Positions 798-21,027 of a stretch of DNA of 64,000 nt are shown in pieces. Position numbers and translations under genes: made by a program. The stretch's first letter is position 1. Each line of letters starts with the position of its first letter. The notes under the pieces are model-generated. The model saw only the letters and a program-made list of their open reading frames with translations, did no database searches and was not told where the DNA came from. This stretch comes from an uncultured delta proteobacterium (GTDB lineage Bacteria; Myxococcota_A; Polyangia; Polyangiales; Polyangiaceae): positions 544,001 through 608,000 of the forward strand of contig CAWJCS010000004.1 of the NCBI GenBank assembly GCA_963841435.1. The letters run 5' to 3'.

Positions 798-1967
798 TAA
801 ACGTCCATCTTCATGTTCTCGCCCTCGACGGCGTGTACGTCCGCGATACGGAGAGCGGCGCGCTCGTGTTCGAGGAGCTCGGCACGCCCAGCCACGTGGA
901 GGTACTAGACGTCGCACGCCGCACCGCCGAGCGCATCGACAGGCTGCTCGGAAAGAGCGGCCGGAGCCTCGAGCGGGAAGGGGACGAGCCCGTGCCCGAG
1001 CTCCTCTCCGACGAGCCGAGCCTGGCCTCGTGCTATGCGGCCGCTGCCCAGGGCATCAGCGTGAGCGGCGAGCGAGCGGGAAAGCCCCAGCTCAGGCTCG
1101 TCCTCGGCACTGGCGCCACTGCCGAAGGAGCCGAGCTCAACCCGGACGAGCCCGTGGCCGAGCACCTCGGCGTCAACATCCACGCCAAGCAGTCGGTTGA
1201 ACGGGCGTGATCGCCGGCAGCTCGAGCGTTTGTGCCGTTACATCACGCGGCCTCCTGTTGCTCAGGAAAGACTCGAGCGGCTTGCCGACGGCCAGCTCGA
1301 GCTCCGACTCAAGCATGCGTGGAAGGACGGCACGCGCGCCGTCGTGCTCGAGCCCGACGACTTGCTGGTCCGGCTCGTCGCCGCGGTGCCCCCGCCACGC
1401 TGGCATTTACTTCGCTACTTCGGCGTCCTCTCGAGCCACTCACGGCTCCGCCGAGAAGTTGTTCCGCACCCGCCCGCTGATCCGAGTGCTACCGCGCCTC
1501 CGCCTGCTCCGGGCGATCAGCTCGAGCTCGACCTCGACGCTGACGCTGACGAGCCTGCTCCGAGAAAAAGATGGGCCTGGCTGCTCAGACATGTGTTCAA
1601 GGCAGATTTGGATATTTGTCCGCGCTGCGGTGGACCGATGCGCTGGCTCGAGGCGGCGGCTACCCGAGAGTCTGCTCGTGACCTGCTCGCTCGGCTCGGG
1701 CTCGGGCCCAGGCCGCCGCCGGCTCCACCCCGCACGCCGCTCGCGCAGCTCACGCTGCCGTTCGCGAGGTGAGCCGGCTTGCGCTGGTCGCTGCGCCAGG
1801 CGAGCGTCCGCGCGCGTTCTGGGTTCGGGGAGCTCTGGCACCTCAGAGCCTCCTTCCGCCTCGTCCACGACAGCACGTCCACCCCATAGGCGTGCGTTCT
1901 TACGGCCTCGCCGGCCTCGCCGTGGGCCCCGCCCGGGACCTTTTGCCAGATCGTTTCGCCTAGGCGC
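798..1967 (+). mobile_element. ISCR/IS91-like element copy A, 5'-truncated (1170 bp)
   Basis: Matches 7258..8426 by eye except CGAC->TGAAC at 1198-1202 (frameshift); ends ...TTTCGCCTAGGCGC. Confidence 0.95.
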
Positions 1968-5840: not shown

Positions 5841-6117
5841 TGATCTTCCCCCGGTTTCGTGGACACCCCAGAAGGCGCGAGAATGCGCCGGGAGTGGACC
5901 ATGGAAAACAAGAAGCAACGAAGGAAGCGGCGCTCGTTCACGGCCGAGTTCAGGGCCGAAGCGGTTCGCCTGTGCAAGGTCGGCGACCGCAGCGTCACGC
6001 AGGTGGCCAAGGACCTCGACCTCACCGAGAACTCGCTGCGTGAGTGGGTCAAGCGCGCCGACATCGACGCCGGCAGTGGACCGCCAGGCGCGCTCACCAC
6101 AGCCGAGCGCGAGGAAC
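5841..6117 (+). mobile_element. IS3-family left end plus truncated orfA
   Basis: IRL-like TGATCTTCCCCCGGTTTCGTGGACACC; ATG at 5901 gives RRSFTAEFRAEAVRL...VAKDLDL...AEREEL (HTH_Tnp_1), then breaks off. Confidence 0.85.
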
Positions 6118-6233
6118 TCGAGCTTGAGCTCGAGCTGATCGCCAGGCGCCGGCGGCGGGACATGCGCGCTCGGATCAGCGGGCGGGTGTGGCACGACTTC
6201 TCGGCGGAGCCGCGAGTGGCTCGAGAGCAGGCC
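6117..6233 (-). mobile_element. Inverted fragment of a diverged sibling ISCR-like transposase
   Basis: Encodes GLLSSHSRLRREVVPHPPADPSAHVPPPAPGDQLELKLE versus GVLSSHSRLRREVVPHPPADPSATAPPPAPGDQLELDLD in the full copy. Confidence 0.85.
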
Positions 6234-6301
6234 AGAGTCGAGCGTCTCGACAGCCGTTTGGCCGGCGGGCGTGAGGTCAGATATCGCGATGGAGGCGCCG
6301 G

Positions 6302-6400
6302 TCATTCCTCTGGGACGCGCGTCGCCGCGCGCCTCGAGCGGCCTACCCGGGAGCTCGGGCGGGCAGCCCTCGAACGCTCCTCTATGTGGCCTTGCTCCAG
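6302..6400 (-). repeat. 99-bp internal fragment of rnpB (direct repeat of 32069..32167)
   Basis: 98/99 identical by eye; single difference at 6385 (T) versus 32152 (C). Confidence 0.95.
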
Positions 6401-6657
6401 CTTTGCTGCCCACGCCCCGGCCTGCTCGGCGCGTGCTCGTGTGCTCAGGCGGGCGCGCCGCGCGCAGCGTTGACGATGGGGTCGTCGTGGCCCGCCTTGC
6501 GCGCACTGCGCGCGCTGCCTGCGCGGGCCTTGCCCCTCCCAAACTTGTGCTCGGCCGCGGGCCTGCGCGCAAGCGGGAGGGGCCCGCGACCGGCGGCCGC
6601 GTGGCGAGCCAGTGGCCGCCGGGCATCGAGCAAGCGCGATCTGGTGAGAGAGCGCAT

Positions 6658-6686
6658 CGGCACGCGGCTGGCTCGAGCGCTCGAGC
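6658..6686 (+). promoter_or_regulatory. Possible sigma-54 (-24/-12) promoter overlapping a 16-bp palindrome just before the transposase start
   Basis: CGGCACGCGGCTGGCT has GG-N10-GC spacing; GCTCGAGCGCTCGAGC (6671-6686) is a perfect palindrome abutting GTG at 6687. Confidence 0.3.
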
Positions 6687-8231
6687 GTGGGCGATCCCGC
6701 GCACAGTCGGCAAACAGAGCACGGCACTACCCGTCGGGACGGCTACGCGCGAAGGCGACCGGAAGACGGCGTGCTCTACCAGACGGTGGCCGAGCGCTGG
6801 CCGGCGTTTCGCGAGCGGATGGAGGAGTCGGGCGGGCTGCCGAAGTTCGTGGTGAGGGAGTTCGAGGAGTTCTTGAAGTGCGGCATCATCGAGGAGGGTT
6901 GTCTCCACCTCGTGTGCCGTAGCTGCGGCTACTCCGAGGTCGTGGCGCTCTCCTGCAAGAAGCGAGGGTTCTGCCCCAGTTGCCTGGGGCGGCGGATGGC
7001 GGATACGGCGGTCCACTTGGAAGAGCGTGTGCTGCCGTGCGTGCGCATTCGGCATTGGATTTGTTCCTTGCCCTGGGGCCTCAGAGCCTTGCTCGGCTAC
7101 GACCGCGAGCTCTGCGCGAAGGTCGTGAGCGCGTTCGTCGGTGAGCTCAGCCGCTCGCTCAAGAAGAGAGCGAAAGGAGAGTTCGGCCTTGCGAGCGTCG
7201 AGGATGCGCACACCGGCGCCGTCTGCACCGTGCAGAGGACGGACGGGGCTTTGCGACTAAACGTCCATCTTCATGTTCTCGCCCTCGACGGCGTGTACGT
7301 CCGCGATACGGAGAGCGGCGCGCTCGTGTTCGAGGAGCTCGGCACGCCCAGCCACGTGGAGGTACTAGACGTCGCACGCCGCACCGCCGAGCGCATCGAC
7401 AGGCTGCTCGGAAAGAGCGGCCGGAGCCTCGAGCGGGAAGGGGACGAGCCCGTGCCCGAGCTCCTCTCCGACGAGCCGAGCCTGGCCTCGTGCTATGCGG
7501 CCGCTGCCCAGGGCATCAGCGTGAGCGGCGAGCGAGCGGGAAAGCCCCAGCTCAGGCTCGTCCTCGGCACTGGCGCCACTGCCGAAGGAGCCGAGCTCAA
7601 CCCGGACGAGCCCGTGGCCGAGCACCTCGGCGTCAACATCCACGCCAAGCAGTCGGTCGACGGGCGTGATCGCCGGCAGCTCGAGCGTTTGTGCCGTTAC
7701 ATCACGCGGCCTCCTGTTGCTCAGGAAAGACTCGAGCGGCTTGCCGACGGCCAGCTCGAGCTCCGACTCAAGCATGCGTGGAAGGACGGCACGCGCGCCG
7801 TCGTGCTCGAGCCCGACGACTTGCTGGTCCGGCTCGTCGCCGCGGTGCCCCCGCCACGCTGGCATTTACTTCGCTACTTCGGCGTCCTCTCGAGCCACTC
7901 ACGGCTCCGCCGAGAAGTTGTTCCGCACCCGCCCGCTGATCCGAGTGCTACCGCGCCTCCGCCTGCTCCGGGCGATCAGCTCGAGCTCGACCTCGACGCT
8001 GACGCTGACGAGCCTGCTCCGAGAAAAAGATGGGCCTGGCTGCTCAGACATGTGTTCAAGGCAGATTTGGATATTTGTCCGCGCTGCGGTGGACCGATGC
8101 GCTGGCTCGAGGCGGCGGCTACCCGAGAGTCTGCTCGTGACCTGCTCGCTCGGCTCGGGCTCGGGCCCAGGCCGCCGCCGGCTCCACCCCGCACGCCGCT
8201 CGCGCAGCTCACGCTGCCGTTCGCGAGGTGA
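6687..8231 (+). CDS. IS91-family/ISCR-type HUH transposase (Zn-binding N-terminal domain plus Y2_Tnp)
   Basis: CRSC...SCKKRGFCPSC zinc motif, NVHLH HUH motif, ERLCRYITRP single-Tyr ISCR-type motif, LRYFGVL, C-terminal CPRCGG. Confidence 0.93.
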   Translation: MGDPAHSRQTEHGTTRRDGYARRRPEDGVLYQTVAERWPAFRERMEESGGLPKFVVREFEEFLKCGIIEEGCLHLVCRSCGYSEVVALSCKKRGFCPSCLGRRMADTAVHLEERVLPCVRIRHWICSLPWGLRALLGYDRELCAKVVSAFVGELSRSLKKRAKGEFGLASVEDAHTGAVCTVQRTDGALRLNVHLHVLALDGVYVRDTESGALVFEELGTPSHVEVLDVARRTAERIDRLLGKSGRSLEREGDEPVPELLSDEPSLASCYAAAAQGISVSGERAGKPQLRLVLGTGATAEGAELNPDEPVAEHLGVNIHAKQSVDGRDRRQLERLCRYITRPPVAQERLERLADGQLELRLKHAWKDGTRAVVLEPDDLLVRLVAAVPPPRWHLLRYFGVLSSHSRLRREVVPHPPADPSATAPPPAPGDQLELDLDADADEPAPRKRWAWLLRHVFKADLDICPRCGGPMRWLEAAATRESARDLLARLGLGPRPPPAPPRTPLAQLTLPFAR

Positions 8232-8426
8232 GCCGGCTTGCGCTGGTCGCTGCGCCAGGCGAGCGTCCGCGCGCGTTCTGGGTTCGGGGAGCTCTGGCAC
8301 CTCAGAGCCTCCTTCCGCCTCGTCCACGACAGCACGTCCACCCCATAGGCGTGCGTTCTTACGGCCTCGCCGGCCTCGCCGTGGGCCCCGCCCGGGACCT
8401 TTTGCCAGATCGTTTCGCCTAGGCGC

Positions 8427-8983
8427 TCAAGACGGCGAAGACCGACTACACCGAGCACGCCGACAAGCACGACGTCTCCAACATCGTGCGTGGCATCATG
8501 AAGGAGCAGCACCGCGCGATGTTCGCCGCTCTGCGCGCGGGCTCGCTCGACGCGGCGCTCGAACGAGCGATTGGTCCCCTGTCCGAAGTTCCCGCGAAAG
8601 GCCCTGCCAGCCGCCGTCCGGAAAGCGTGCGTCCCGCGCATCCGCGCGAGCAGAATAGCCCCCGCCGCGGCCCACCACAGAACCCCGCCCTGCAGGGCGT
8701 GTCGCCCTCCGTGTCGCCTCCTACCTCTGACGACTTCGACGCAGGCACACTGCGCGATCTCCCGCCCGCGTCGCTGTCGCAGCCAGCGCCGCGCTCGCGC
8801 AAGACCAACCAGCCGCCGCGCCGCAGTCGCCCCCCGTCGCCGCATCGCCCGGCGGCCCAATTCGCCGGGGCGCCGGAAGCCCGTGCCCGCTCCATCTTCG
8901 GTGACGAAGCGATCAGCGAGCAGACCTTGGACGAGGTCATCCTGAGCTATCTCGCCGAGGATCTCGACGACTCGGGCGAGTGA
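8427..8983 (+). pseudogene. 5'-truncated conserved myxobacterial hypothetical protein, fused to the element terminus
   Basis: Frame opens at the junction as LKTAKTDY...IMKEQHRAMFAALRAG and ends FGDEAISEQTLDEVILSYLAEDL; N-terminus absent; family recognised from memory. Confidence 0.6.
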
Positions 8984-9146
8984 GCCGCGTCGCGCTCGCG
9001 GGGCGGCCTGTTGTGGGTGCGAGCTGCTCGATTCTTCCGGGCTCGTCGCGACGCGCAGTTCACCGCGCGCCGTTGACGCCCGGTGCGCACTGGGTTTATG
9101 CTCCTAGACGCGTGGGCGGCTGATCCGCGGCGCGCTGGAGGGTTCA

Positions 9147-11879
9147 TTGATGATGGGGCGAAAACCCGGGTGGTTGTTGTTTGGGGCGATCGCGTGTCTC
9201 ACCACGCTTGGTTGCGGGAACGTAAACGACGATGTGGGGGGGGGTGAGACAACATCCCACACGCGTGAAGCGCTAACTCAGAACTTCACTCTGCCGGTCC
9301 CGGTCGGCTTCACCCCGCAGGACATCGTTGTCGGTGCGATCGGTGTCGTGAACCTCAACGACAACGCCAAAATTCTCACGCACGCTCCGGGGCAGCTTTC
9401 CCAATACGGCAACGTGGCGGCGTTCGGCTCGCCAAGCACCACGAGCAACATAGGCGCCCTGAGGGCGGGCGTGGTCTGGTCACGTCCCAGCTTGCTTCTG
9501 CGCCAGCATAATCAAGGCGGCGCGAACATCGAATTTTACAAGACCGAGGGCACCGCGACCGAACAGTTAGGATTTGTCATCGCTCGGCCGGAGGAGAACA
9601 GAACTCAGGTCCAAATCCGACGAGATCCGATTTGGACCGTTCCGATGTCCGCGCCTGACGGAGGAATGGACCATAACGTGAACAGCGGCGAAACCGTTTC
9701 GCTCGGGTCCGGCAACTACGGTCGCTGGACGGTCAACTCCGGCGGAACGCTGATCCTCACGGGCTCGACCTATGGCTTTGTGGAGCTCAACCTCAACTCC
9801 GGCGGGACCGTGCAGCTTACTTCTTCGATACCACCGTGGATCTTCGTGCGGGATTCGCTGATCGTGCGCGCCACATTGAACAAGCCGGGCATGGTTGTTG
9901 GCTATCTCGGCACGAGCACGGTACCGGTCGAGTACCCCTTCTACGGCGACTTGCTTCTTGCTCCGAACGCGGACATCGAAGTCAAGTCCGGTAGCCAAGC
10001 GCACTTCTTCGGCAAAGACGTGACGGTCTTCGAAGCGGTTGTCGTCGATGGACCTCCCTTGTCGGAACGAACGCAGGGACTCGTGCGACCCCTCAGCAGC
10101 ATCGGGCTCCCCGCCGGTCTGATCGACGATGCCGTGGCGGCGGAGATCTCGTCGGCGGTACTCACGTCCCAGCTCGGCTGCGGAACAGCACACGCGTTCG
10201 TCAGCCACTACGGCAACGCCTTGATGGACAAGCTCGTTTCCGACATCGGCACCACCAATCCAGCCTCCTTCGCGACATTTCCCACGCCGGCTGCGCCGGG
10301 CTCCTGCACGTCGCTCGGCTGGTTGCCCGGTGAAACGCCGGCGTGGCCCGCGCTGGCGGGCGGTACGCCTTCGTACGACGACACGCTGACCGTGGCTGAT
10401 AACGCACTGGTGCGCATGAGCGGGGGCCGCCTGGCGCAGGCCGGGCTTGCCGGTCGAACCTGCGTCGATCCGAGCAATAACATCGCGCAAGGGCCAAACT
10501 GCCCGGGGTCGCAGCCCACGGCGGGCGATCCCTGCAATCCCAGCGGGCTCGACAACAAGGCCTGCATCTACGGCACGACCCAGTGCCAGTGCTTGCCGAC
10601 GGCGTGCAAAGGGCTCGAGGGGGCGAGCTGCTTCCAGCCGTTCGAGGCAAAGGACTGCTGCAGCGAGTCCTGTTCCGTTCAGTCGGGGAGCAACGTGGGG
10701 ACGTGTACGGCGCCGGATCCCATGCAGGTTCTGAACCCGACGTGGAGCTGCGGGCCGCTCGAGCGCGTGGAAACTGCCACGATGAGCGTTCGGATCGGGA
10801 CCAGCTGCGGCAGCCAGTGGACGAGCAAGAGCTTCGACCCGGTCGTGCTCGGCATGACGTTGAGCGACGGCATCCCGGTCCGCGACTTCGATCGGCAAGA
10901 GATGTACTGGGACAACTTCGACGATCGGCTCTACCTCAACGTCAACTCGTACGCCGGCTTTGGCGGTGGAGGTAGCCTCGTCAGCCAGAACTTCATCTAT
11001 TCGGCGTCAGCGGCGGGCATCAACAACGCCGTGAACCTCGCCTTTCAGCCCGTGTTGCCACAGAAGGTTGCCGGTGACGACGACGCCTCGGGCCCGCGCG
11101 TGATGACCACGGTCCTCGACGAAAAGGCGCGGCTCACCTCCAATCCCGTCACGTTCGGGCGCTACGTGCACCTCGTCACCGCGCGCTGCTTCGGCACGCG
11201 CCCGCAGGTGCAGATCTACACGCCGTTCGGGAGGAGGACGTGGGATCTGAATGAAGGGGATCCGGATGTAGCGGCACAATGCCGTAGCGCTGTCGTCCCG
11301 TACCCGCTTCTCACGCGGGGTCCAGGCATCGCCGCCGTGTCTTCCGTCCCGCCGCGCGTGCGCATCGCGTACACCGGCGTGGATGCGGAGGGCTCGATGG
11401 TCATCAACGTATACTCGGCGACGATCCTGAGCGGGAACGATTACGCCGACCGCCCGTTGATCGTACGCGAACACACGGTGCACGCGCCGTCGTCCGGTCG
11501 AGACACCGTCTGGCCGAACCTCATTGGCGTGGACGGCCTGGCCGGTTCCGATCGCCAGCTCGACTCCCCGATGGTGCTCCGCTGGCTAGAATTTGGCCCG
11601 AACGATATGGTCAGCGAGAAGTTCCAGGTGCTCTATTCGGGCCTTGCCGGTCCCGAGGCAACGCTCCAGAGCTGGACGCTCAGCGACCTGCCCGCGATGG
11701 GAAGCGACTACCGTTACGGGTCGTTCTTCGAGAAGTCGGGAGGCGAGCTCCGCTTCTTCACGCCTTGGACGGGCGTGAGCCGAACTTCCATGGGGCAATT
11801 GATCTGTCGCGACGGGAACAACACACCGATTCCCTGTGCGAGTGGAGGCTTCGTCGATGTCACGCCTAAGCTCTTATGA
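9147..11879 (+). CDS. Large secreted lipoprotein (beta-helix-like N-terminus, Cys-rich middle, propeller-like C-terminus)
   Basis: 910-aa ORF with LTTLGC lipobox and Cys clusters. Confidence 0.75.
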   Translation: MMMGRKPGWLLFGAIACLTTLGCGNVNDDVGGGETTSHTREALTQNFTLPVPVGFTPQDIVVGAIGVVNLNDNAKILTHAPGQLSQYGNVAAFGSPSTTSNIGALRAGVVWSRPSLLLRQHNQGGANIEFYKTEGTATEQLGFVIARPEENRTQVQIRRDPIWTVPMSAPDGGMDHNVNSGETVSLGSGNYGRWTVNSGGTLILTGSTYGFVELNLNSGGTVQLTSSIPPWIFVRDSLIVRATLNKPGMVVGYLGTSTVPVEYPFYGDLLLAPNADIEVKSGSQAHFFGKDVTVFEAVVVDGPPLSERTQGLVRPLSSIGLPAGLIDDAVAAEISSAVLTSQLGCGTAHAFVSHYGNALMDKLVSDIGTTNPASFATFPTPAAPGSCTSLGWLPGETPAWPALAGGTPSYDDTLTVADNALVRMSGGRLAQAGLAGRTCVDPSNNIAQGPNCPGSQPTAGDPCNPSGLDNKACIYGTTQCQCLPTACKGLEGASCFQPFEAKDCCSESCSVQSGSNVGTCTAPDPMQVLNPTWSCGPLERVETATMSVRIGTSCGSQWTSKSFDPVVLGMTLSDGIPVRDFDRQEMYWDNFDDRLYLNVNSYAGFGGGGSLVSQNFIYSASAAGINNAVNLAFQPVLPQKVAGDDDASGPRVMTTVLDEKARLTSNPVTFGRYVHLVTARCFGTRPQVQIYTPFGRRTWDLNEGDPDVAAQCRSAVVPYPLLTRGPGIAAVSSVPPRVRIAYTGVDAEGSMVINVYSATILSGNDYADRPLIVREHTVHAPSSGRDTVWPNLIGVDGLAGSDRQLDSPMVLRWLEFGPNDMVSEKFQVLYSGLAGPEATLQSWTLSDLPAMGSDYRYGSFFEKSGGELRFFTPWTGVSRTSMGQLICRDGNNTPIPCASGGFVDVTPKLL

Positions 11880-12561
11880 TCTCTGGATCCTCACGGCGCT
11901 CGTCGCGGTCGGCGCTTGCGGGCGCTCGACGCGCGAGCCACCGAGCGACGGAGGGCGGTCGGGAGTTGGCGGTGGCGGAACGAGCGGGGGTACGATCGGT
12001 GGAGTTGGTGCAGTAGGCGCTGCCGGCGTTTCTGCAGGAGGCTCTCAGGGAGGCACGGGGACAGGCGGTACGGGGACAGGCGGCGCGGCCGCGCGCGGAG
12101 GAGCGAGCGCCGGCACATCGGCGAGCGGAGGCGTGAGCCCGACTGGCGGCTCAGGAGCGGTGAGCGCCGGTGGTCAGGGCGAGGACAGTGGCGAAGGGGG
12201 CGCGCCGGCGGGCTCCGCGGGCCGCGGCGGCGACTCGGGCCGTGGCGGACAGAGCGCGGGGCGCGGGGGAACGGCTGGCACGAGCGGGGGGACCGGAGGC
12301 GACGCCTCGGGAGCGGCGGGAGCCACGAGCTGGCGAGACTTGCGGTGCGTGATAGCCGAGTCACAAGGATCCTGCCTCAAACAGGCGCCCAATACCGTGG
12401 TCGTCAACTGCAACGGAGCTGATGTCGTGGAGGCGATGGAAGCCGGCTGCAGTGGCTGCACCTATGGGCAGGCCTACTGCGAATATGGTGGCGGTCCCAT
12501 CCCACCCGACTGCGGAGGCCTGGGCCAAGCGTGCTGTCGGAGCTGCTGCTGTCCGCCGTGA
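11857..12561 (+). CDS. Gly-rich lipoprotein with Cys-rich C-terminus
   Basis: MSRLSSYDL...VGAC lipobox; overlaps the upstream stop; ends CCRSCCCPP. Confidence 0.7.
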   Translation: MSRLSSYDLWILTALVAVGACGRSTREPPSDGGRSGVGGGGTSGGTIGGVGAVGAAGVSAGGSQGGTGTGGTGTGGAAARGGASAGTSASGGVSPTGGSGAVSAGGQGEDSGEGGAPAGSAGRGGDSGRGGQSAGRGGTAGTSGGTGGDASGAAGATSWRDLRCVIAESQGSCLKQAPNTVVVNCNGADVVEAMEAGCSGCTYGQAYCEYGGGPIPPDCGGLGQACCRSCCCPP

Positions 12562-13367
12562 GCGAGCGGGCATCGCGCGCTTTTTTCGCCCGCGTGAGCA
12601 CGACAAGTGGCGCGCTCCGCACCCGCTCCCGCGCCTTGCACCTCGGCCTGGCAGAGGCAGGGACGCAGCGACCCGTCTCGCTCGGACGGGCAGAGTGAGT
12701 CAGATGACAGGAGCATTGCACCCTGCCAGGTGCTGAGTGGAGGCTTCGTCGATGTCACGCCTAAGCTCTTATGATCTCTGGATCCTCACAGCGCTCGTCG
12801 CGGTCGGCGCTTGCGGGCGCTCGACGCGCGAGCCACCGAGCGACGGAGGGCGGTCGGGAGTTGGCGGTGGCGGAACGAGCGGGGGTACGATCGGTGGAGT
12901 TGGTGCAGTAGGCGCTGCCGGCGTTTCTGCAGGAGGCTCGCAGGGAGGCACGGGGACAGGCGGTACGGCGACAGGCGGCGCGGCCGCGCGCGGAGGAGCG
13001 AGCGCCGGCACATCGGCGAGCGGAGGCGTGAGCCCGACTGGCGGCTCAGGAGCGGTGAGCGCCGGTGGTCAGGGCGAGGACAGTGGCGAAGGGGGCGCGC
13101 CGGCGGGCTCCCCGGGCCGCGGCGGCGACTCGGGCCGTGGCGGACAGAGCGCGGGGCGCGGGGGAACGGCTGGCACGAGCGGGGGGACCGGAGGCGACGC
13201 CGCTGGAGCGGCGGGAGCCACGAGCTGGCGGGACTTGCGGTGCGTTGCGGCCGAACTGCAGAGATCATGCCTTAAGCAGGAACCCAATACCGTGGTCGTC
13301 AACTGCAACGTAACCGCTGCACGGACCCCATCTGTCGAGCACGCGCTGGTGCTGGCAGAAGTCGTGC

Positions 13368-13664
13368 ATGCGGAAGCGGTACACGGCTGAGCAGCGGGAG
13401 CGGTTGGTCGCTGAGGTAGCGGCGGGCGAGGCGGTGCCGGTGGTGGCGGCGCGGATGGGTGTGGGGGCCTCGGCGGCATACCTGTGGGTCAAGGAGGCAC
13501 GAGAGGGGAGCAAGCCGACGTTCGCGAAGCTGGTGCGGGCGTTAACGCCGGCGGCGTCATCGTCGATGGTGCTCGAAGTGGGACGAGCTCGAGTGCGCGT
13601 CGAAGCTGGCTTCGACGCCGAGCTGCTCAGGCGGGTCGTGTCGGCGCTGAGCGACGCATCGTGA
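13368..13664 (+). CDS. tnpA: IS66 TnpA (HTH)
   Basis: RKRYTAEQRERLV...YLW...VEAGFDAELLRRVV. Confidence 0.85.
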   Translation: MRKRYTAEQRERLVAEVAAGEAVPVVAARMGVGASAAYLWVKEAREGSKPTFAKLVRALTPAASSSMVLEVGRARVRVEAGFDAELLRRVVSALSDAS

Positions 13665-14002
13665 TCGGGCAGGGGCTTCCGGTGTACGTGGCGCTCGAGC
13701 CGGTGGACATGCGGTTCGGATACGAGCGGCTCGGCGGGGTCGTGCGTGAGCGGATGCAGGCGGAGCCGAGGTCGAAGGCGCTGTTCGTTTTCGTCGGCAA
13801 ACGCGGGCACACGATGAAAGTGCTGACCTGGGACGGCTCGGGCACGATCGTGGTTCACAAGCGGCTCGACGCGGGGAAGTTCGAGCTGCCGAAGGCGACG
13901 CGAGTCGGCGATCAGCACGTGATCGTGAGCGACGCGATCTTCGAGGTGATCTACAAGGGCGTCGCAACGGCACCGAGGAAAGTTCGCCGGCGCGTGCACT
14001 GA
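13661..14002 (+). CDS. tnpB: IS66 accessory protein TnpB
   Basis: VYVALEPVDMRFG...LFVFVGKR...KVLTWDGSG...KRLDAGKF. Confidence 0.9.
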   Translation: MIGQGLPVYVALEPVDMRFGYERLGGVVRERMQAEPRSKALFVFVGKRGHTMKVLTWDGSGTIVVHKRLDAGKFELPKATRVGDQHVIVSDAIFEVIYKGVATAPRKVRRRVH

Positions 14003-14070
14003 GTCGGAGCTCGCAATTTTCTTACGCGCCCGCTTGAGAAATTCGATCGCGCTCATGTATAGAGGAGAGC

Positions 14071-15750
14071 GTGTCGAGCACGCGATCGGACGAAGCGAAA
14101 CCGCAGCTATCGCCGGACGAGCTCACCATGCTGCTCTCGACGCTCCAGGCCGAGGTCGTGGGGCTCAAGACGCGTTTCTCCGAGGCCGTGACGCGCAACG
14201 AGGCGCTCGAGGAAACGATCGTCAACCTGACGCACGAAAACGAGCTACTCAAGCGCCGCATCTACGGCAACAAAACGGAGCGGACCGGGACGAGCGAGCT
14301 TCAGCTGACGCTCGGCAACCTGCTCGACTCGGAAAAACAGCTTCAGAAGGAGCTCGACGCCGCCGTGGCCAAGGCGCGTGGCGATGACGACGTTCCTGCC
14401 GCCCCGCCCGCGGGCGCCTCGCGACCGAAGCCCAAGGGCCGGCGAGATTTGTTGGCGAGCGACCTGCCGCGCGTCCTGTTCGAGATCCGCGACGAGGAGC
14501 TCGAGAAGACGGGCAAGCTCATCGGCTGGGACTACGCGCCGCAGCTGATGTACCGCCGAGGCGGCTGGTCGGTCCTGGTCAAGCGCACGGCCAAGTACGA
14601 GATCCCCGGCAAGGACGGCCCGACGGTGCTCGGCGTCGAGACGCCGAAGACGTTGTTCCGGCGCGGTCTCCTGCATTCGTCGGTCGTGGCACACGTCTTG
14701 GCGCAGAAGTTCTCGCTCGGCGTGCCGCACTACCGACTCGAGCAGCACCTCGCCGGCCAGGGTGTCGACCTCGACCGCGGTCTCATGTGCCGCTACGTGG
14801 AAGAAGCGGGTAGCACGTGCGGAGCCACCATCGTCCACGCCATGTGGCAGGACGCGCTCGAGAGCGGCTCGGTGATCTCGACCGATGCAACGTCGGCGCT
14901 GATCCAGCCTGAAAAGAGCCAAAATGGCCAGCGGCAGGCCTGCAAGAAGGGCCACTTCTTCACCGCCGTCGTGGACACCGACCACGTGCTGTTCGCGTAC
15001 GCCGAGAAGCACACGCAAGACTTCGTGAAGAAGCTCTTCGGCGGCTTCACGGGATTTCTCCAGTCCGACGCCAGCAACGTCTACGACATCCTGGACCGGG
15101 GACCCCCCAGCGAAGATGACGAGACCGTCACCCTCGTCGGATGTTGGGCTCACTGCAGGCGCTATTTCTTCGAGGCCGCGATCTGCAAACACCAGATCGG
15201 CATCCAAGGCCTCTTGCGCATTCGCGCCATCTACGCTGCTGACGACGCGTTCCGGAAGCTGCCGCCCGCCAAACGCAAGGCGCTGCGCGATACGCACCTG
15301 CGCCCCCTCATGCTGAGCTTCTTCGAGTGGGTGAAGGCCACGCGCCTCACCACGCCCGGCCGCAGTCTCGCAACCAAAGCGCTCGGCTACGCGTTCAACC
15401 AGGAGAACGAGCTCTTGCGCGTGCTCGACGACGGCCGTCTGCCCCTCGACAACACGCGCTCCGAACGCTCGCTGCGAAAAATCGTCGTGGGTCGCAAAAA
15501 TTGGATGTTCTACGGCAGCGACACCCACGCCGAGAGCGCCGCCGCCATCTTCAGCCTGATCGCCTCCTGCCGGCTTCACCGGCTCGACGCCGAGCAGTAC
15601 CTCGACGAGATCCTCCGCGTCCTGCCCTACTGGCCCCCGACTCGCTACCTCGAGCTCGCTCCGAAGTTCTGGCCCGCCACCCGTGCCAAGCTTCGCGCCG
15701 AGGAACTCGACGCACCGCTGTGCCCGTTCACCATCCCGCCGGCGGCCTGA
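14071..15750 (+). CDS. tnpC: IS66 DDE transposase TnpC
   Basis: GCWAHCRRYF, LDNTRSERSLRKIVVGRKNWMF, SLIASC motifs. Confidence 0.93.
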   Translation: MSSTRSDEAKPQLSPDELTMLLSTLQAEVVGLKTRFSEAVTRNEALEETIVNLTHENELLKRRIYGNKTERTGTSELQLTLGNLLDSEKQLQKELDAAVAKARGDDDVPAAPPAGASRPKPKGRRDLLASDLPRVLFEIRDEELEKTGKLIGWDYAPQLMYRRGGWSVLVKRTAKYEIPGKDGPTVLGVETPKTLFRRGLLHSSVVAHVLAQKFSLGVPHYRLEQHLAGQGVDLDRGLMCRYVEEAGSTCGATIVHAMWQDALESGSVISTDATSALIQPEKSQNGQRQACKKGHFFTAVVDTDHVLFAYAEKHTQDFVKKLFGGFTGFLQSDASNVYDILDRGPPSEDDETVTLVGCWAHCRRYFFEAAICKHQIGIQGLLRIRAIYAADDAFRKLPPAKRKALRDTHLRPLMLSFFEWVKATRLTTPGRSLATKALGYAFNQENELLRVLDDGRLPLDNTRSERSLRKIVVGRKNWMFYGSDTHAESAAAIFSLIASCRLHRLDAEQYLDEILRVLPYWPPTRYLELAPKFWPATRAKLRAEELDAPLCPFTIPPAA

Positions 15751-15928
15751 GCTCGGCGCGAGCGCGGCATCGCGACCCCCGGCCGAGCTGCCCTTTCAAG
15801 ATGGGGTCGGTGTAGCGGTTACACTGCAACGGAGCTGACGTGGTGGAGGCGATGGAAGCCGGCTGCACTGCCTGCACCTACGGGCAGGCGTACTGCGATT
15901 ATGGCGGCGGCCCCGTCCCACCCGATTG

Positions 15929-16413
15929 AGGCAGGTGGGTCGGGTCTAGAATGGATGCCATTTGGATTCGCTGGCGGTTTGTTCGATGCGCGGTCGGGAA
16001 CGATAAGGTTTGGGGCGCGCGACTATGATCCCGTGATCGGTCGATGGACCGCGAAGGATCCCTTGTTCTTTGCTTCGCGGACGACCAACCACTACGCCTA
16101 CGTGGGGAACGACCCAGTCAATGATCGCGATCCAACGGGTCTGCAGTTTCTGACCGGGTGCTCGCCGGTGAAGCCGGAGCAGGAGCTGAAAGAGAAGAAG
16201 GATGAGGAGGTCGATGAATGTAGCAAGATCCCGCGAGGCGGAAAAGGGAAACTGCTCGGCCCGAACGAGTCCTCTGACTCCGAACCGGACTACGCGGCGC
16301 AAGCCGCCAAGTGCCGGAAGAAGGAGCGGGAGTACAGCAAGGAGCAGAAGGACTACACTGAAGAAGAGTCGAACATTTTTCACAGGATCTTCTGTTGGTT
16401 TTTCGGCTGCTAG
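15929..16413 (+). pseudogene. Orphan RHS core end plus C-terminal (toxin-position) domain
   Basis: PFGFAGGLFD...RFGARDYDPVIGRWTAKDP...YAYVGNDPVNDRDPTGL, then about 90 variable aa; no RHS body upstream. Confidence 0.85.
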
Positions 16414-17579
16414 GTCGCAGTGTGCCCGCTTGGGCGGTTCTCGCTCTCATCTCGGCAATGGGTCTCGCGGGGAGTGCGGTCGCCATGGCCATGATGCGGA
16501 TGTCGGAAAACCGACTGGGTGAGGCGCAGTCTCAGTCATTGAGACGGGCGCGGGCGGCGTACCGCGGCCACGCTTGGCGCCGTCCTGCTTGGCGACTTCC
16601 GGAGGCTTCCTGTAACGCACTAGAGAATGCAGCAAGCGCGCTGGCCCGAGACCGGTCCACGTGGAGCAATTGGTCAGAGACGTCCACGCAGGCGAAGGCG
16701 GACGCGTCCGATGCGTTCTACGAGTCGCTGCGTTGTTCATGGACTTTTGTTGGCGCACCGTTCCCCTCCGAGGCGACCGGCCGCCCGCTTGACTACGCAC
16801 TGCATGCGACCGCCGTTGAGCGGCTCCTAGCGGATGCGGCAAAGTCCGACGCCCCGCGGTGCCTGAGGACAGTGCTGCTAGTCATCGAGCTAGCGTTCGA
16901 TCTCATACCTGGGGGACGCGAACAGCAGGTCGGCTTTGCGAACACGGAGATCACAAAGGGTGCGCAGGTCGCCTTGGGGTGCGTACAAAGAGCACCCTTG
17001 GAAACGCTGGCCGAGCTGACCCATCCATTTCTGAGCGTCGCCTCGCAGCCCCCCCCGATTGCCTGGACGGTAGAGTACCACTTTCTACGCGATGCGGAGT
17101 ATGAGGAGACGCTGTTTCAGGGGCGGCCGCTCGTTCCTCGATTCTGGGACGGCGCGAGATACGAGCTGACTGATGGCGGGAGGATCCTGTCCCGCATGCG
17201 CAAGGCCCTCGACGCTGCACGTCGCGCCAGGGAATTGGGCGAGCTCGGACCAACTGCTGATGGCAAGCTGACAGCCTTGGTGTCGGACGTTCCGGCGTAT
17301 CTCGGGGCATCAGTCCGCAGAGCGCACACGGTCGGCGACAGTTTACGGTCATTCATTCGAGTCCGCGCGGTCGCATGCGGGATTTGGTGGCTGACCAAAG
17401 CAGATGGTTCTGCCATTCCCGCGGTTTGCTCGGCGCAGAACGCCGGGGGACCCCTGATCTTCTCGCCAACAGCAGAGAGCCTAAAAGTCTACGCATCCGG
17501 GCCGAACGGGCGCGACGATGGCGGCTCGGGAGACGACGAAGGGATCACGGTCACCATTCCGGGGTCGTACCGAAGGTGA
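16395..17579 (+). CDS. Hypothetical membrane-anchored protein downstream of the RHS tip (immunity position)
   Basis: 394-aa ORF with N-terminal TM segment and C-terminal YASGPNGRDDGGSGDD, a T2SS GspG-like C-terminal motif. Confidence 0.6.
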   Translation: MVFRLLGRSVPAWAVLALISAMGLAGSAVAMAMMRMSENRLGEAQSQSLRRARAAYRGHAWRRPAWRLPEASCNALENAASALARDRSTWSNWSETSTQAKADASDAFYESLRCSWTFVGAPFPSEATGRPLDYALHATAVERLLADAAKSDAPRCLRTVLLVIELAFDLIPGGREQQVGFANTEITKGAQVALGCVQRAPLETLAELTHPFLSVASQPPPIAWTVEYHFLRDAEYEETLFQGRPLVPRFWDGARYELTDGGRILSRMRKALDAARRARELGELGPTADGKLTALVSDVPAYLGASVRRAHTVGDSLRSFIRVRAVACGIWWLTKADGSAIPAVCSAQNAGGPLIFSPTAESLKVYASGPNGRDDGGSGDDEGITVTIPGSYRR

Positions 17580-17773
17580 TGGGTTAGCGTCCGAGATGGA
17601 TTTGCCGTCCGCCGCGTCTCACCCGAGCGTCGAACCGTCGCGCCATCGCCGAACCCCGACCCGAGGTCAGTCGGACCGATCACTCCATCCGCGAAAGTAC
17701 CAGCCAAATCCAAAGCCGACGGCGAGCACGACGACGGTCACGACGTCGATTGCGAGGCTCGGGATCACGGAAC

Positions 17774-18490
17774 CCTCCTGTTGCTCAGGAAAGACTCGAG
17801 CGGCTTGCCGACGGCCAGCTCGAGCTCCGACTCAAGCATGCGTGGAAGGACGGCACGCGCGCCGTCGTGCTCGAGCCCGACGACTTGCTGGTCCGGCTCG
17901 TCGCCGCGGTGCCCCCGCCACGCTGGCATTTACTTCGCTACTTCGGCGTCCTCTCGAGCCACTCACGGCTCCGCCGAGAAGTTGTTCCGCACCCGCCCGC
18001 TGATCCGAGTGCTACCGCGCCTCCGCCTGCTCCGGGCGATCAGCTCGAGCTCGACCTCGACGCTGACGCTGACGAGCCTGCTCCGAGAAAAAGATGGGCC
18101 TGGCTGCTCAGACATGTGTTCAAGGCAGATTTGGATATTTGTCCGCGCTGCGGTGGACCGATGCGCTGGCTCGAGGCGGCGGCTACCCGAGAGTCTGCTC
18201 GTGACCTGCTCGCTCGGCTCGGGCTCGGGCCCAGGCCGCCGCCGGCTCCACCCCGCACGCCGCTCGCGCAGCTCACGCTGCCGTTCGCGAGGTGAGCCGG
18301 CTTGCGCTGGTCGCTGCGCCAGGCGAGCGTCCGCGCGCGTTCTGGGTTCGGGGAGCTCTGGCACCTCAGAGCCTCCTTCCGCCTCGTCCACGACAGCACG
18401 TCCACCCCATAGGCGTGCGTTCTTACGGCCTCGCCGGCCTCGCCGTGGGCCCCGCCCGGGACCTTTTGCCAGATCGTTTCGCCTAGGCGC
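17774..18490 (+). mobile_element. ISCR/IS91-like element copy C, 5'-truncated (717 bp)
   Basis: Identical by eye to 7710..8426. Confidence 0.95.
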
Positions 18491-18639
18491 ACCTCACCGC
18501 CCTGGGCCCCGCCTCCTCTAACGACCGCTTCGCCCGCCCAACGGCCCCGCCGTTTTCCCAGTTCGATTTTCCTTCGCGCCCACCCGTGAAAACGCCACGC
18601 CGGCGCCGCCAACGCCGAGCGTCTGGACTGCTTATGCCC
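18491..18639 (+). mobile_element. Possible oriIS-end remnant of a different ISCR/IS91 element
   Basis: GCGTCTGGACTGCTTATGCCC (18619-18639) resembles the ISCR oriIS end GCGTTTGAACTTCCTATACCC as recalled. Confidence 0.45.
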
Positions 18640-18685
18640 AAACCTTGACAGCCGGCCCCCCGCGGGGTAGCCGCACCGGGTGAGC

Positions 18686-18720
18686 GGCGCCTCAGCAATG
18701 GGCGCCTCAGCAATGGGCGC
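18686..18720 (+). repeat. 15-bp tandem duplication GGCGCCTCAGCAATG x2.3
   Basis: Seen directly in the sequence. Confidence 0.8.
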
Positions 18721-18736
18721 GGGAAGGAGCAGCGCG

Positions 18737-20996
18737 ATGGGCGGTGCAATCGATGGGCAGTGGAGATGGGCTCGGAAGCATGCGTCGTGGCTCGGGCTTC
18801 GGGGGCCATGGGTGTACCAAGTACTGTGCGGTGCGGTCGCAGTCTGGGCCGTGGGATGTGCACCCAGCGAGGACACAGCTGAAGCCACGGACAACGACGC
18901 CGCTTCGTTGTCGTTGGAACCGCGGCCTTACAGGCATCCCCTCCTGAACGCACACGACGTTGGGAAGGCTGATGGCCTACCGGATGGCGTTCTGCCATTC
19001 GTCGACCTCAAAGATACTCCGCGTGGCGATCGCTACGCGATGTCCGAGGGGGTCGATGTAGATGAAGCCGGCTACACTCGCTCACATTCGGGCATCTCGG
19101 TGCTGCGGCGGGGGCCGGCCCCGACTGAACAGCCAGTGAAGGAGCCAAGGTCGCCCGGCCCGTCGCAGCCAGCACGCCTGGGGTCTGGTCTACAGCGCGC
19201 GCTCGCAGAGGCGAGCCCCGCCGAGTCGTTGGTCGTCGAAATCTCCATCGAACGGGTTTTCCCGCCCCTGACACGACTCATGCAGCGGGCCATTGCGGCA
19301 GGTCAGATCTTCGACGACGCTTCCCGCGAGGCTTGGCGCACGTCCGCGCTCACCCAGAAGGAGCTCGCAGTCCAAGCGGCGCAGGAGCCGATCGTCGCGC
19401 GTGTCCGCGATCTGGGGGGCAGCGTATTAGCACGCTACGAGAATCTGCACCAAATCGTCGCGTCCGTCCCTGCCAGTCGCGTGCTGGATTTGCTCGCCGA
19501 GCCGTCGGTGCAGCACCTCGATGCGGTCGAGACCCCGGCACTGGAATGGCCCGATGGTATTCCGCTCCGAACAGGCCAGCAGCTGGACCAATTTATCGAC
19601 GACGGATTCAATGGTGAGAGTGGTGGGAGCAGCGACGTTCTCTTTCGCCATTGCCGAAGGAGACGACAACGGCGCGATCGGGATCGACGAAGGCCTGTAT
19701 GCCTACAAAGAGGACTCATCCGGCACTAGAATTCGAGCGCTGTACGATTGTGGTTCGTCGAGTTGTACTAGCGCTTCCGAGTACTCCAATCCGAGCTGGC
19801 ACACCACGAAAGTGTCCGCGATCCTGTTCGGCGACCTGCAGGATGGCCAAGACCCGAACTACACCGGCTCGGATGACCGCAAGGCGCGATCCGGGTTCGC
19901 GACTGAAGCAAAGGGGTACTTCTACACATTGGGAAATTTCGGGGCGGCCGCGAATCATATAATCGGGATATCCACATACGAACCGGCTCTCGTGAACCTC
20001 TCCTGGGGTTTTGATGGTGGCGATTGCTCAGGGGAGGACGCGGGATCAGTCTCCGTTGACGAGATGTTTGAGGACGGAACGTTGACGTTCAAGTCGGCCG
20101 GGAATGACGGGCATTCAAGCAGTACCGACTGCAAGGTCACCGATCCTGGACCCGCGATGGGGGCGTTCGTCGTGGGCTCTTATGGGGATGTCAACTCGAG
20201 CACGCTTGACAACGTCCGAACCGACGAAATCTGCGCGAACTCGGCCCGCGGAGGCACCACGTCCGACGGCAAGGGTCGCTCCATGGTCAACCTGGTCGCG
20301 TACGCCCCGCGATCCAGGATCCCCCGCCCCGGCAACGTCTATAGCACCGTGGGCTGTGGAACGAGCTACGCGGCGCCAGCGGCGGCCGGCGCGGCCATCG
20401 ATTTCGCGGATCATTACTTCATGACATATGGGTCTCTGATCTTTGATCCCGGAATCCTCCACGCCGCGATGTTGCTCATGGGGGACAGGAGCAAAGAGGG
20501 CGGTGGAACGCAGTCCAATAAGTTCAACAACTTGTACGGCGCCGGGCGCATGCGAATGCGCCGCCTGGACGACACTGGGATGGACAATCCATGGGGGTTC
20601 GAAATGGGCTCCGTCTGCATCGACAATGGAGAGTGGTATCACCTAGACATCAACGGCGGGAACGCACTCAGCTCTGATGTCGATGTCATCAAGGCGGTCG
20701 CTTGGTGGTACGATCCTCGACTCGAGACGGGAACCCAAATCGATGATGTTGATCTTCAATTGGCGCGAAACGGAACGAGTGTGCAATACAGCACCAGTTC
20801 GGATGACGAGAAGGAACGAGTAAAATATACCACCGGTGGGACATCGGCGACATACGAGCTCATCTTTCACGGAGCGAGCGTTACCGCCGACAACGCCGGT
20901 TGCGGCACGAACTCCATGCTCGTCTACTATGCCTACTTCTACGAGGATTCGGACCGTGATGACGGTTCGGCGCTCGACGAGATTCTACCCGAGTAG
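18737..20996 (+). CDS. S8 (subtilisin-like) serine peptidase lipoprotein with one frameshift near 19643
   Basis: WAVGC lipobox; WHTTKVS, KSAGNDG, GTSYAAP; removing one T joins DVLF to AIAEG. Confidence 0.8.
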
Positions 20997-21027
20997 GACT
21001 CAGGTCAAAAAGAGGAGATACGAAGAC

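What the first reader, a model, noticed from the sequence alone, without database searches (positions are those of the whole stretch)
6302..6400. Element carries a 99-bp piece of the host RNase P RNA gene, and the island ends at rnpB
Seen: a 98/99 match to 32069-32167 in the same orientation, fused to the element 5' side; the accessory region stops at the rnpB terminator 25.8 kb away. The piece lacks the last ~55 nt of rnpB, so it is not the usual integrase att duplication of a 3' end, and no intact integrase is present. Inference: it is either a relic of capture from rnpB or a homology/guide segment that directs the element and its cargo to the rnpB neighbourhood. Transcription in the transposase direction would give RNA antisense to rnpB.
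Basis: partly seen in the sequence, partly recalled or inferred. Interest (0 to 1): 0.75.

Follow-up and report, generated by a model that had tools for sequence, protein, structure and literature searches.

The report
Orphaned rnpB 3' piece marking inserted DNA
The 99-base copy of the RNase P RNA gene is real, but it looks like a dead leftover from DNA inserted into the end of that gene, not a homing device carried by the neighbouring transposase.

Summary
The match is real. Window 6302-6400 equals rnpB 32069-32167 (98/99). rnpB lies on the minus strand at 32007-32390, and the piece is its nt 224-322.

It is one of three copies in this genome, and all three come from a single event. They share one derived base and one junction with a ~200-bp dispersed repeat, here called R (6401-6608). 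The copy on contig C6 keeps the true 3' end and the terminator, so the window piece is a cut-down 3'-terminal duplication.

R separates the piece from the IS91-family element (about 6609-8426). I found no rnpB piece in 77 homologous transposase loci from other genomes.

Relatives have other genes directly downstream of rnpB, and synteny resumes at rnpB itself.

The same layout recurs here at rpmB: a 223-bp fragment, then R, then 11 kb of cargo, then intact rpmB, with the native flank on the fragment's side. It also recurs at rhs fragments.

Best reading (0.6): the piece is an orphaned 3' fragment, left when about 25.6 kb entered by recombination within the 3' part of rnpB. IS debris later truncated it, and it was copied once more to C5. 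No integrase is present, so the enzyme is unknown. The idea that the transposon carries it as a guide is not supported.

The parts
6292..6400 (-). Orphan rnpB 3'-part fragment. 6302-6400 equals rnpB nt 224-322 (98/99). 6292-6301 is still homologous to the long C6 copy. The 3' side is cut off.
6401..6608 (+). Dispersed GC-rich repeat R. Its TGCCCAC end touches the cut 5' end of the rnpB piece. Other copies touch an rpmB fragment (C4:705438) and an rhs fragment (C3:1542956), and lie in rhs orphan arrays in G006.
6609..8426 (+). IS91-family rolling-circle element. tnpA is 6687-8231 (514 aa, Zn_Tnp_IS91 + Y2_Tnp). The right (oriIS) end at 8426 is shared by five copies. The left end is placed by homology to a second subfamily.
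6233..7258 (.). Segment duplicated at 99.8% on contig C5 (897894-896869). It carries the rnpB piece, R and the 5' part of tnpA.
5851..6119 (+). Truncated IS3-family orfA (HTH_Tnp_1). Part of the IS debris that replaced the 3' side of the rnpB piece.
6118..6233 (-). Inverted fragment of an IS91-family tnpA, 84% identical to 7881-7996.
6401..31975 (.). About 25.6 kb of accessory, IS-rich DNA between the orphan piece and rnpB. It holds IS91, IS66, two truncated IS91 copies, a subtilase, a PMT glycosyltransferase, an RTX/CBM2 protein and a 910-aa lipoprotein-like ORF. It holds no recombinase.
31976..32006 (-). rnpB terminator region. This is the outer limit of the block duplicated in the long (C6) copy and of homology to relatives.
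32007..32390 (-). Intact rnpB (RNase P RNA, class A), the only full-length copy in the genome. 32069-32167 is the block matched by the piece.
798..1967 (+). 5'-truncated IS91 copy that keeps the oriIS end. It starts at the equivalent of 7258, exactly where the C5 duplicate stops.
17774..18490 (+). 5'-truncated IS91 copy that keeps the oriIS end.
24250..24886 (+). 5'-truncated IS91 copy that keeps the oriIS end.

Best explanation
The piece is a non-functional, orphaned copy of the 3' part of this lineage's own rnpB.

A block running from rnpB nt ~222 to just past the terminator (194 bp) was duplicated once, when foreign DNA entered the chromosome by a single recombination inside that block. The incoming DNA was a circle of the form [rnpB 3' part + terminator]-cargo-R. 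The product is intact rnpB, then the cargo, then repeat R, then the displaced 3' fragment in direct orientation. This is how islands sit at tRNA genes, and how rhs/CDI 'orphan' modules are thought to be displaced.

Later, IS debris cut off the fragment's own 3' end, an IS91 element landed at the far end of R, and a 1-kb stretch was copied to C5.

SHOWN: the copies and their single origin; the long form; the geometry; the absence of a recombinase; the twin architecture at rpmB and rhs; the lack of any link to IS91 elsewhere.

INFERRED: that the DNA entered as a circle; the order of events; the enzyme. The enzyme could be RecA acting on the 190-220-bp homology, or an integrase that is lost or acts in trans.

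The piece itself probably does nothing now.
For: 1. Single origin. All 3 fragments share A where rnpB and 8 of 8 relatives' rnpB have G. All 3 also share the rnpB|R junction.

2. The long form, C6:177030-177223, equals 31976-32169 and ends right after the terminator.

3. Topology. The piece is a direct repeat 25,767 bp downstream of intact rnpB.

4. Synteny. Relatives' synteny resumes at rnpB. A GYF-domain gene lies directly downstream of rnpB in 14 of 26 genus genomes. In this genome that gene is about 66 kb away.

5. Twin case at rpmB. The layout is rpmB fragment (223 bp, 98.7%) | R | 11 kb cargo | intact rpmB. In G041 the homologs of the fragment-side flank sit directly beside rpmB.

6. R also touches 5'-cut rhs fragments: 1 in this genome and 3 of 4 R copies in G006.

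7. The same genome has 11 tRNA genes with a partial copy elsewhere, 9 of them direct repeats on the same contig 2.5-24 kb away. 7 of the 11 have a PF00589 hit within 1 kb. The pattern is therefore routine here.

8. G034 independently has a 40/40 direct rnpB repeat 1.6 kb downstream of its rnpB, plus a 160-bp 3'-terminal copy elsewhere.
Against: No tyrosine or serine recombinase lies in or beside the 25.6-kb segment, the rpmB island, or the C5 and C6 copies. None was found within 1.5 kb downstream of rnpB in the 26 genus genomes looked at (53 of 105 candidate ORFs scanned).

No empty site is available in a close strain. The relatives are different species, with flanks about 75-82% identical.

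The piece is not at the outer edge of the variable region. Another ~40 kb, partly housekeeping-like genes, separates it from the GYF gene.

The C6 and C5 copies are not next to rnpB and need later rearrangement.

The role of R is unexplained. It has no special fold (z -0.29) and no Rfam match.

No published case of rnpB as an attachment site turned up in four searches.
Confidence: 0.6

Rival explanations
1. Hitch-hiker of rolling-circle transposition. The IS91 element missed its terIS and carried its upstream flank (R plus the rnpB piece) as a one-ended transposition product. The copies were spread that way and have no targeting role.
For: In experiments, IS91-family termination fails in 1-10% of events and co-mobilises DNA next to terIS, the end upstream of tnpA (PMC13181058, passages read). 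The piece lies on that side. Window 6233-7258 recurs at 99.8% on C5. The window copy 798-1967 begins exactly where the C5 copy stops (7258), as if one 6233-8426 unit had been split. Four further copies keep the oriIS end and lose variable 5' lengths, which points to sloppy rolling-circle products.
Against: This can explain the spread but not the origin. The element-facing end of the piece is the interior of an essential single-copy gene. R lies between the piece and the element, and R exists without IS91 in G006 (0 Y2_Tnp hits, 98% complete). The C5 copy lacks the oriIS end, so it is not itself a rolling-circle product. The rpmB twin has R but no IS91. 0 of 77 homologous loci carry rnpB. G034 has rnpB pieces but no Y2_Tnp hit.
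Confidence: 0.15
2. Working homing device. The rnpB segment is kept because it steers circular intermediates, of the IS91 element or of R-bounded cargo, into the rnpB neighbourhood by homologous recombination. This would parallel ISCR1 circles entering the 3'-CS of class 1 integrons.
For: The long form (nt 222 to the terminator) is exactly the kind of segment that allows a single crossover without killing rnpB. rpmB shows the same design. No integrase is present. The pattern of shared bases among rnpB, the window copy and the C6 copy fails the four-gamete test, so the copies have recombined.
Against: The window and C5 copies lack the 3' end. A crossover through them would leave rnpB without its last 62 nt, so they cannot serve as guides. 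Homologous transposases elsewhere carry no such segment (0 of 77). All 3 copies stem from one event, so repeated use is not shown. C5 and C6 lie far from rnpB.
Confidence: 0.1
3. No mobile DNA was involved. A local tandem duplication or template switch had its join-point at the palindromic repeat R, and most of one copy was then deleted.
For: GC-rich palindromic repeats are known join-points of tandem duplications (recalled, not checked here). R has inverted symmetry at its ends. The region is full of rearrangement debris.
Against: No second copy of the cargo lies left of the rnpB piece or left of the rpmB piece. Two independent clean deletions would be needed. In G041 the fragment-side flank lies directly beside rpmB, as insertion predicts. 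The cargo next to rnpB has no counterpart beside rnpB in the relatives examined.
Confidence: 0.1
4. Regulatory antisense RNA. Transcription from the IS3 or transposase side yields RNA complementary to rnpB nt 224-322 that modulates RNase P.
For: Geometry only. The piece is antisense to a plus-strand transcript.
Against: No promoter-like or terminator-like site was found in 5600-6900. The piece lies upstream of tnpA, behind a truncated orfA. The copies carry a pseudogene-type substitution and have different truncations. Nothing points to conservation outside this genome.
Confidence: 0.03

Closest known systems
Genomic islands at tRNA/tmRNA genes (attL/attR duplication of the gene's 3' part by a tyrosine integrase)
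   Same: An intact stable-RNA gene, then accessory DNA, then a partial 3' copy in direct orientation. The long sibling copy runs to the end of the gene plus the terminator. The same genome has 11 tRNA genes with such partial copies.
   Different: The target is rnpB, for which I found no printed precedent. No integrase is present. The shared block is long: 194 bp, against 33-61 bp at the tRNA genes here. The window copy has lost its 3' end.
rhs / CDI orphan toxin-immunity modules (older 3' ends displaced by newly acquired ones)
   Same: A 5'-cut gene copy lies downstream of the intact gene in direct orientation. The same repeat R sits at the cut end of rhs fragments in this genome and in G006. 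The displacement idea is stated in PMC9086364 (passage read).
   Different: rnpB and rpmB are essential housekeeping genes. Their replaced 3' end is the same sequence, not a new variant. What rides in is unrelated cargo, not a toxin tip.
IS91 / ISCR one-ended rolling-circle transposition
   Same: A Y2 HUH transposase lies next to the piece, on the terIS side, where read-through would pick up the flank. There are also many oriIS-anchored truncated copies.
   Different: The piece is separated from the element by R. Its orientation cannot arise from read-through beside the working gene. No homologous element elsewhere carries rnpB.
CIMEs (cis-mobilisable elements: att-flanked islands without their own recombination genes). 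Recalled, not looked up.
   Same: An island bounded by a repeat of the target, with no integrase of its own.
   Different: No helper element with a matching integrase was identified. One att remnant here is truncated, so excision would be lethal.

Membership tests
Integrase-type genomic island at a stable-RNA gene | Direct repeat of part of the target gene at both ends of the inserted DNA | tested here: met
   6302-6400 vs 32069-32167, 98/99, same orientation.
Integrase-type genomic island at a stable-RNA gene | The repeated block reaches the 3' end of the gene, so the gene stays intact after insertion | tested here: inconclusive
   The window copy stops 62 nt short. The sibling copy on C6, of the same origin, reaches the 3' end and terminator.
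Integrase-type genomic island at a stable-RNA gene | Integrase (tyrosine or serine recombinase) gene inside the island | tested here: not met
   13 PF00589 hits and 2 PF00239 hits in the genome, none in C4:505-615 kb or near the C5 copy. The nearest to the C6 copy is a large serine recombinase 7 kb away, lying between IS91 pieces.
Integrase-type genomic island at a stable-RNA gene | Empty site in related genomes | tested here: inconclusive
   A GYF gene lies directly downstream of rnpB in 14 of 26 genus genomes, and other genes lie there in the rest. These are different species, not strains.
Integrase-type genomic island at a stable-RNA gene | Excision to a circle | not testable with these tools
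   Only contigs of DNA runs were available, and no informative joint was seen.
IS91-family element with transduced flank (one-ended transposition) | HUH Y2 transposase with zinc-binding N-terminal domain | tested here: met
   PF04986 at 1.1e-22 and PF14319 at 5.4e-15 in 6687-8228.
IS91-family element with transduced flank (one-ended transposition) | Precise common oriIS end; variable other end | tested here: met
   Five copies end at the same base (...cctaggcgc|). Their left ends are at the equivalents of 7790, 7710, 7258 and 7022, or full length.
IS91-family element with transduced flank (one-ended transposition) | The flank (rnpB piece) moves together with a complete oriIS-bearing element | tested here: inconclusive
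   The only second copy (C5) has 6233-7258 without the oriIS half. A complementary half sits at window 798-1967.
   0 of 77 loci with an rnpB hit (blastn, nhmmer). 1 of 77 with a tRNA.
Orphan (displaced 3') module as at rhs/CDI loci | 5'-cut copy downstream of the intact gene, in the same orientation | tested here: met
   Seen at rnpB, rpmB, and rhs in G006.
Orphan (displaced 3') module as at rhs/CDI loci | The displaced copy carries a different 3' end (alternative toxin tip and immunity gene) | tested here: not met
   The rnpB and rpmB copies are the same sequence as the working gene, at 92.8-99%.

The most novel reading that the evidence does not exclude
Repeat R marks a so-far undescribed way of adding cargo to a myxobacterial chromosome. 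R-bounded DNA enters conserved genes (rnpB, rpmB, rhs) by replacing their 3' part and pushing the old 3' part downstream as an orphan, without an integrase of its own. R would be the signal at which the circle is closed or the exchange ends. The carried gene segment would supply both the address and the repair of the target.
Probability: 0.25. Interest if true: 0.7.

Novelty: new variant of a known kind. Interest (0 to 1): 0.42.

Why it matters
As it stands, the piece is a dead leftover and the transposon-guide idea fails.

It still shows two things. First, the DNA just downstream of rnpB is a place where accessory DNA accumulates in this Polyangiaceae genus. Second, insertion can be traced by an orphaned 3' fragment of an RNA gene that island finders do not scan; they look for tRNA and tmRNA.

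The recurrence of one repeat at the cut end of orphaned rnpB, rpmB and rhs copies is a concrete, testable lead on how integrase-less cargo, and perhaps rhs orphan arrays, are assembled.

Tried and rejected
- Earlier notes of this scan: none for this genome.
- RNA evidence: no RNA holder was listed for 5800-7300. The four DNA runs laid down gave only short contigs. These confirmed the 6400/6401 and C5 7258 junctions in run X1, which is possibly the source sample.
- Promoter/terminator scan of 5600-6900: 0 sites.
- Rfam at permissive threshold over 6150-6750: only the rnpB piece and a chance CRISPR-DR hit. Nothing in the G006 array.
- DNA fold of R: z -0.29.
- Joined-flank test. I asked whether window 1-797 and the DNA beyond C5:896869 were once contiguous. 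There was no convincing spanning ORF, so this is inconclusive.
- Conserved right end of the rnpB and rpmB islands: none found.
- Protein similarity between the last ORF before rnpB and the ORF left of the C6 copy: none.
- A supposed ssrA fragment in the IS91-rich C2 region turned out to be DNA downstream of ssrA, not tmRNA.
- Order-wide Rfam scan of 151 genomes. Apart from this genome, partial rnpB hits appeared only in G114 (two pieces on one contig). G065 and G158 each gave two rnpB hits above the cut-off.
- IMG/VR scan with a 15-base rnpB motif: 106 stretches, 80 fetched. By nhmmer, 31 look like full-length rnpB. Of 20 end-proximal loci checked with Rfam, 12 held a full or near-full rnpB, and in 3 of these a tRNA lies between rnpB and the contig end, so in those cases the prophage probably sits in the tRNA. 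42 have no rnpB hit at all, which is about the chance level for a 15-mer by my own rough estimate. 7 loci from 6 records hold partial copies. One is a circular record with an integrase 2.1 kb from a ~165-nt 3' piece. Another is a phage-like contig that ends at model position 213. This is suggestive but too thin to count as evidence.
- DNA comparison of C4:510-544 kb with 5 relatives: only scattered matches at 66-84%.
- The contig break in G008's rnpB at nt 200-224 coincides with the boundary here, but it may be an assembly accident.

Full report
**The observation**

Rfam finds one RNase P RNA gene (RF00010, 286 bits) at 32007-32390 on the minus strand. It is the only hit above the family cut-off in the 7.78-Mb, 6-contig genome. 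Window 6302-6400 matches 32069-32167 at 98 of 99 bases in the same orientation. BLAST gives 6296-6400 vs 32063-32167, 97.1% over 105 bp, E about 1e-44. The piece is rnpB nt 224-322 of 384, so the last 62 nt are missing.

**More copies, one origin**

The genome holds two further partial copies.
- C5:897727-897825 lies inside a 1026-bp, 99.8% duplicate of window 6233-7258.
- C6:177030-177223 equals window 31976-32169 (92.8% over 194 bp). It starts at the same rnpB position but runs through the true 3' end and the terminator hairpin.

In an alignment with the rnpB of 8 relatives:
- All three fragments carry an A where rnpB and all 8 relatives have G.
- All three share this lineage's 'ctcccggg', where 6 of the 8 relatives have 'ctcctggg'.
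- All three are joined at the same base to the same flanking sequence.

They therefore descend from one duplication of this lineage's own gene. The window copy still matches the C6 version for about 10 more bases to 6292, so it is a truncated derivative of the long form. At nt 225 the window copy agrees with rnpB, while C6 agrees with the relatives. Together with the shared A, this fails the four-gamete test and points to later exchange between copies.

**What lies around the piece**

To the right, 6401 to about 6608 is a GC-rich repeat, here called R, beginning ...TGCCCAC. It has copies at C4:705438, C6:177222 (first ~50 bp only), C3:1542956, and in G006, G048 and G031. Its left end occurs in 4 of 47 genus genomes at E<=1e-6.

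The IS91-family element follows. tnpA is 6687-8231 (514 aa, Zn_Tnp_IS91 + Y2_Tnp). Its left end falls near 6609 by alignment with a second subfamily, two copies of which become identical from the homologous point. Its right end, 8426, is shared to the base by five copies. The piece is therefore not fused to the element.

To the left of the piece lie 69 bp of unknown origin, then an inverted scrap of an IS91 tnpA (6118-6233), then a truncated IS3 orfA (5851-6119).

**Context in relatives**

By contig titles, relatives of the transposase come mostly from Polyangiaceae MAGs.

In same-genus genomes the sigma-factor side of rnpB is syntenic, and homology starts at window 31964-31977, the end of the terminator. 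Downstream of rnpB, a GYF-domain gene follows directly in 14 of 26 genomes. Other genes follow in the rest, and none of the 53 ORFs scanned (of 105 candidates) is an integrase (the unpublished G037 is left out).

In this genome the GYF gene is at C4:508338-510287, about 66 kb from rnpB. The nearest relative by flank identity, G034, has 7.4 kb there: an RND efflux operon, plus a 40/40 direct repeat of its own rnpB nt ~279-318 lying 1.6 kb downstream of the gene. It also has a 160-bp 3'-terminal rnpB copy, including the terminator, on another contig.

The DNA downstream of rnpB is thus variable in the genus, and orphan rnpB pieces arose at least twice.

**Recombinases**

The genome has 13 PF00589 hits and 2 PF00239 hits. 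None lies in C4:505-615 kb, in the rpmB island, or near the C5 copy. A large serine recombinase sits 7 kb from the C6 copy, between IS91 scraps.

By contrast, 11 tRNA genes have a 33-61-bp partial copy elsewhere. 9 of these are direct repeats on the same contig, 2.5-24 kb away. 7 of the 11 have an integrase hit within 1 kb. The layout 'RNA gene, cargo, partial copy' is routine in this genome; only the integrase is missing at rnpB.

**The repeat R recurs at other orphaned genes**

At rpmB (ribosomal protein L28):
- C4:705215-705437 is a 98.7% copy of rpmB from about codon 7 to ~20 nt past the stop.
- Its cut 5' end touches R.
- 11 kb of cargo follows: an FAD monooxygenase, a type III PKS, a transporter, a GH15 enzyme and YflT.
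- Intact rpmB then follows at 716728-716967, in direct orientation.
- In G041, homologs of C4:701925-703184 lie directly beside rpmB. The native flank therefore stayed with the fragment, as insertion predicts.

At rhs:
- At C3:1542955/6 a 5'-cut rhs/YD fragment touches R.
- In G006, 3 of 4 R copies touch 5'-cut rhs fragments, two of them orphan modules that start at '...NNPLRFTDPSGF'. One sits just after the main rhs gene and its small downstream ORF.

In every case the gene is antisense to R, its cut end meets R's TGCCCAC end, and, where one is seen, the intact gene lies beyond R and the cargo. For the copies in G048 (2) and G031 (1) I could not name the flank.

I fetched 77 loci encoding relatives of the transposase, 420 kb in all with up to 3 kb on each side. 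Neither blastn with rnpB of 27 genomes nor an rnpB nhmmer profile found a fragment (0 of 77). The window control was hit by 22 of 27 queries and scored E 1.9e-29 with nhmmer. ARAGORN found 1 tRNA. Fragments of very distant rnpB genes could have been missed by these queries.

G034 has rnpB pieces but no Y2_Tnp hit (86% complete). G006 has R but no Y2_Tnp hit (98% complete).

IS91 termination failure does carry DNA from the terIS side (PMC13181058, passages read). That could explain the C5 duplicate. The window copy 798-1967 starts at exactly 7258, where the C5 copy ends. It cannot create a junction whose element-facing end is the interior of an essential, single-copy gene.

**Most likely history**

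A circle of the form [rnpB nt ~222 to terminator]-cargo-R recombined once with chromosomal rnpB inside the shared block. That gave intact rnpB, then cargo, then R, then the displaced fragment. The copies were later rearranged and trimmed by IS activity, and an IS91 landed at the end of R.

- Shown: the copies, their single origin, the geometry, the twin at rpmB with supporting synteny, and the absence of recombinases.
- Inferred: the circular intermediate, the enzyme, and the role of R.

One consequence follows by inference. A crossover between the window piece and rnpB would delete 25.8 kb but leave rnpB without its last 62 nt. The segment is therefore locked in.

**Comparison with what is known**

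It works like an island at a tRNA or tmRNA gene. It also resembles the displacement proposed for rhs/CDI orphan modules (PMC9086364, passage read). It fails the integrase criterion of the former and the 'new 3' end' criterion of the latter.

Four full-text searches found no paper naming rnpB as an attachment site. That covers only the held library.

A motif scan of IMG/VR gave 7 loci from 6 records with partial rnpB copies, 6 of the loci covering the 3' part. One is a complete circular record with an integrase 2.1 kb from the piece. Another is a phage-like contig starting at model position 213, close to the boundary here (215-217). This is a lead only.

**Caveats**

The relatives are other species, so no true empty site was seen. 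The genome is a 6-contig assembly, 95% complete. The R pattern rests on few independent junctions: rnpB, rpmB, rhs in this genome, and the rhs array in G006. No expression data exist.

Noticed in passing
window 798-1967, 17774-18490, 24250-24886; also G000 C6:170190-171591: Four 99.6-100% identical IS91 copies all keep the exact oriIS end and are cut at different points on the tnpA 5' side. This is what abortive rolling-circle transfer starting at oriIS would leave. Three of the four left flanks end in GAAC-like words.
   Followed up: partly
G000 C4:705215-716967 (outside the window): Ribosomal protein L28 gene (rpmB) with an orphaned 223-bp 3' copy 11.5 kb away. The two bracket a type III PKS / FAD-monooxygenase cargo, and repeat R lies at the orphan's cut end.
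   Followed up: yes
L067 (G006:C353:12001-24725): An rhs locus with a main gene, small downstream ORFs and several orphan C-terminal modules. Each module examined is preceded by repeat R in inverse orientation.
   Followed up: partly
window 9147-11876 and G000 C6:172667-175426: Two 910-920-aa lipoprotein-like paralogs (35% identity, E 4e-140, no Pfam family). Each lies 0.7-1.1 kb beyond the oriIS end of a near-identical IS91 copy.
   Followed up: partly
G000, 11 tRNA genes (for example C2:862863, C3:1402003, C6:898482, C6:1092383): Classical island signatures: 33-61-bp tRNA fragments 2.5-32 kb from the gene, most with a tyrosine integrase beside the tRNA or the fragment.
   Followed up: partly
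L075 / L074 (G008:C78 end, G008:C166 end): In relative G008 the rnpB gene is split over two contigs. One ends at nt 224 and the other begins at nt ~200. This is the same position as the fragment boundary here. It may be strain heterogeneity or an assembly accident.
   Followed up: partly
L164 / L207 / L262 (IMG/VR record with direct terminal repeats, 46,105 bp): A complete circular record carries a ~165-nt rnpB 3' piece 2.1 kb from a tyrosine integrase. A radical-SAM gene lies between them and an ABC transporter lies beyond. It is a candidate rnpB-targeting element from an unrelated, ~48% GC host.
   Followed up: partly
window 11836-12415 and 12730-13310; 3217-3828 and 3862-4475: Two local direct repeats (96% over 583 bp; 82% over 615 bp). 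The second lies within a run of ORFs flanked by trypsin-like protease genes.
   Followed up: no
window 41695-41934 and 51493-51612: Tandem arrays of 48-bp and 15-bp units in very GC-rich DNA, probably coding repeats.
   Followed up: no
G000 C2:9000-60000: A second IS91-rich region. It shares several 98-99% identical pieces with the window (13310-13775, 14795-15822, 25710-26639). It also holds a 145-bp, 90% copy of DNA lying just downstream of ssrA.
   Followed up: partly
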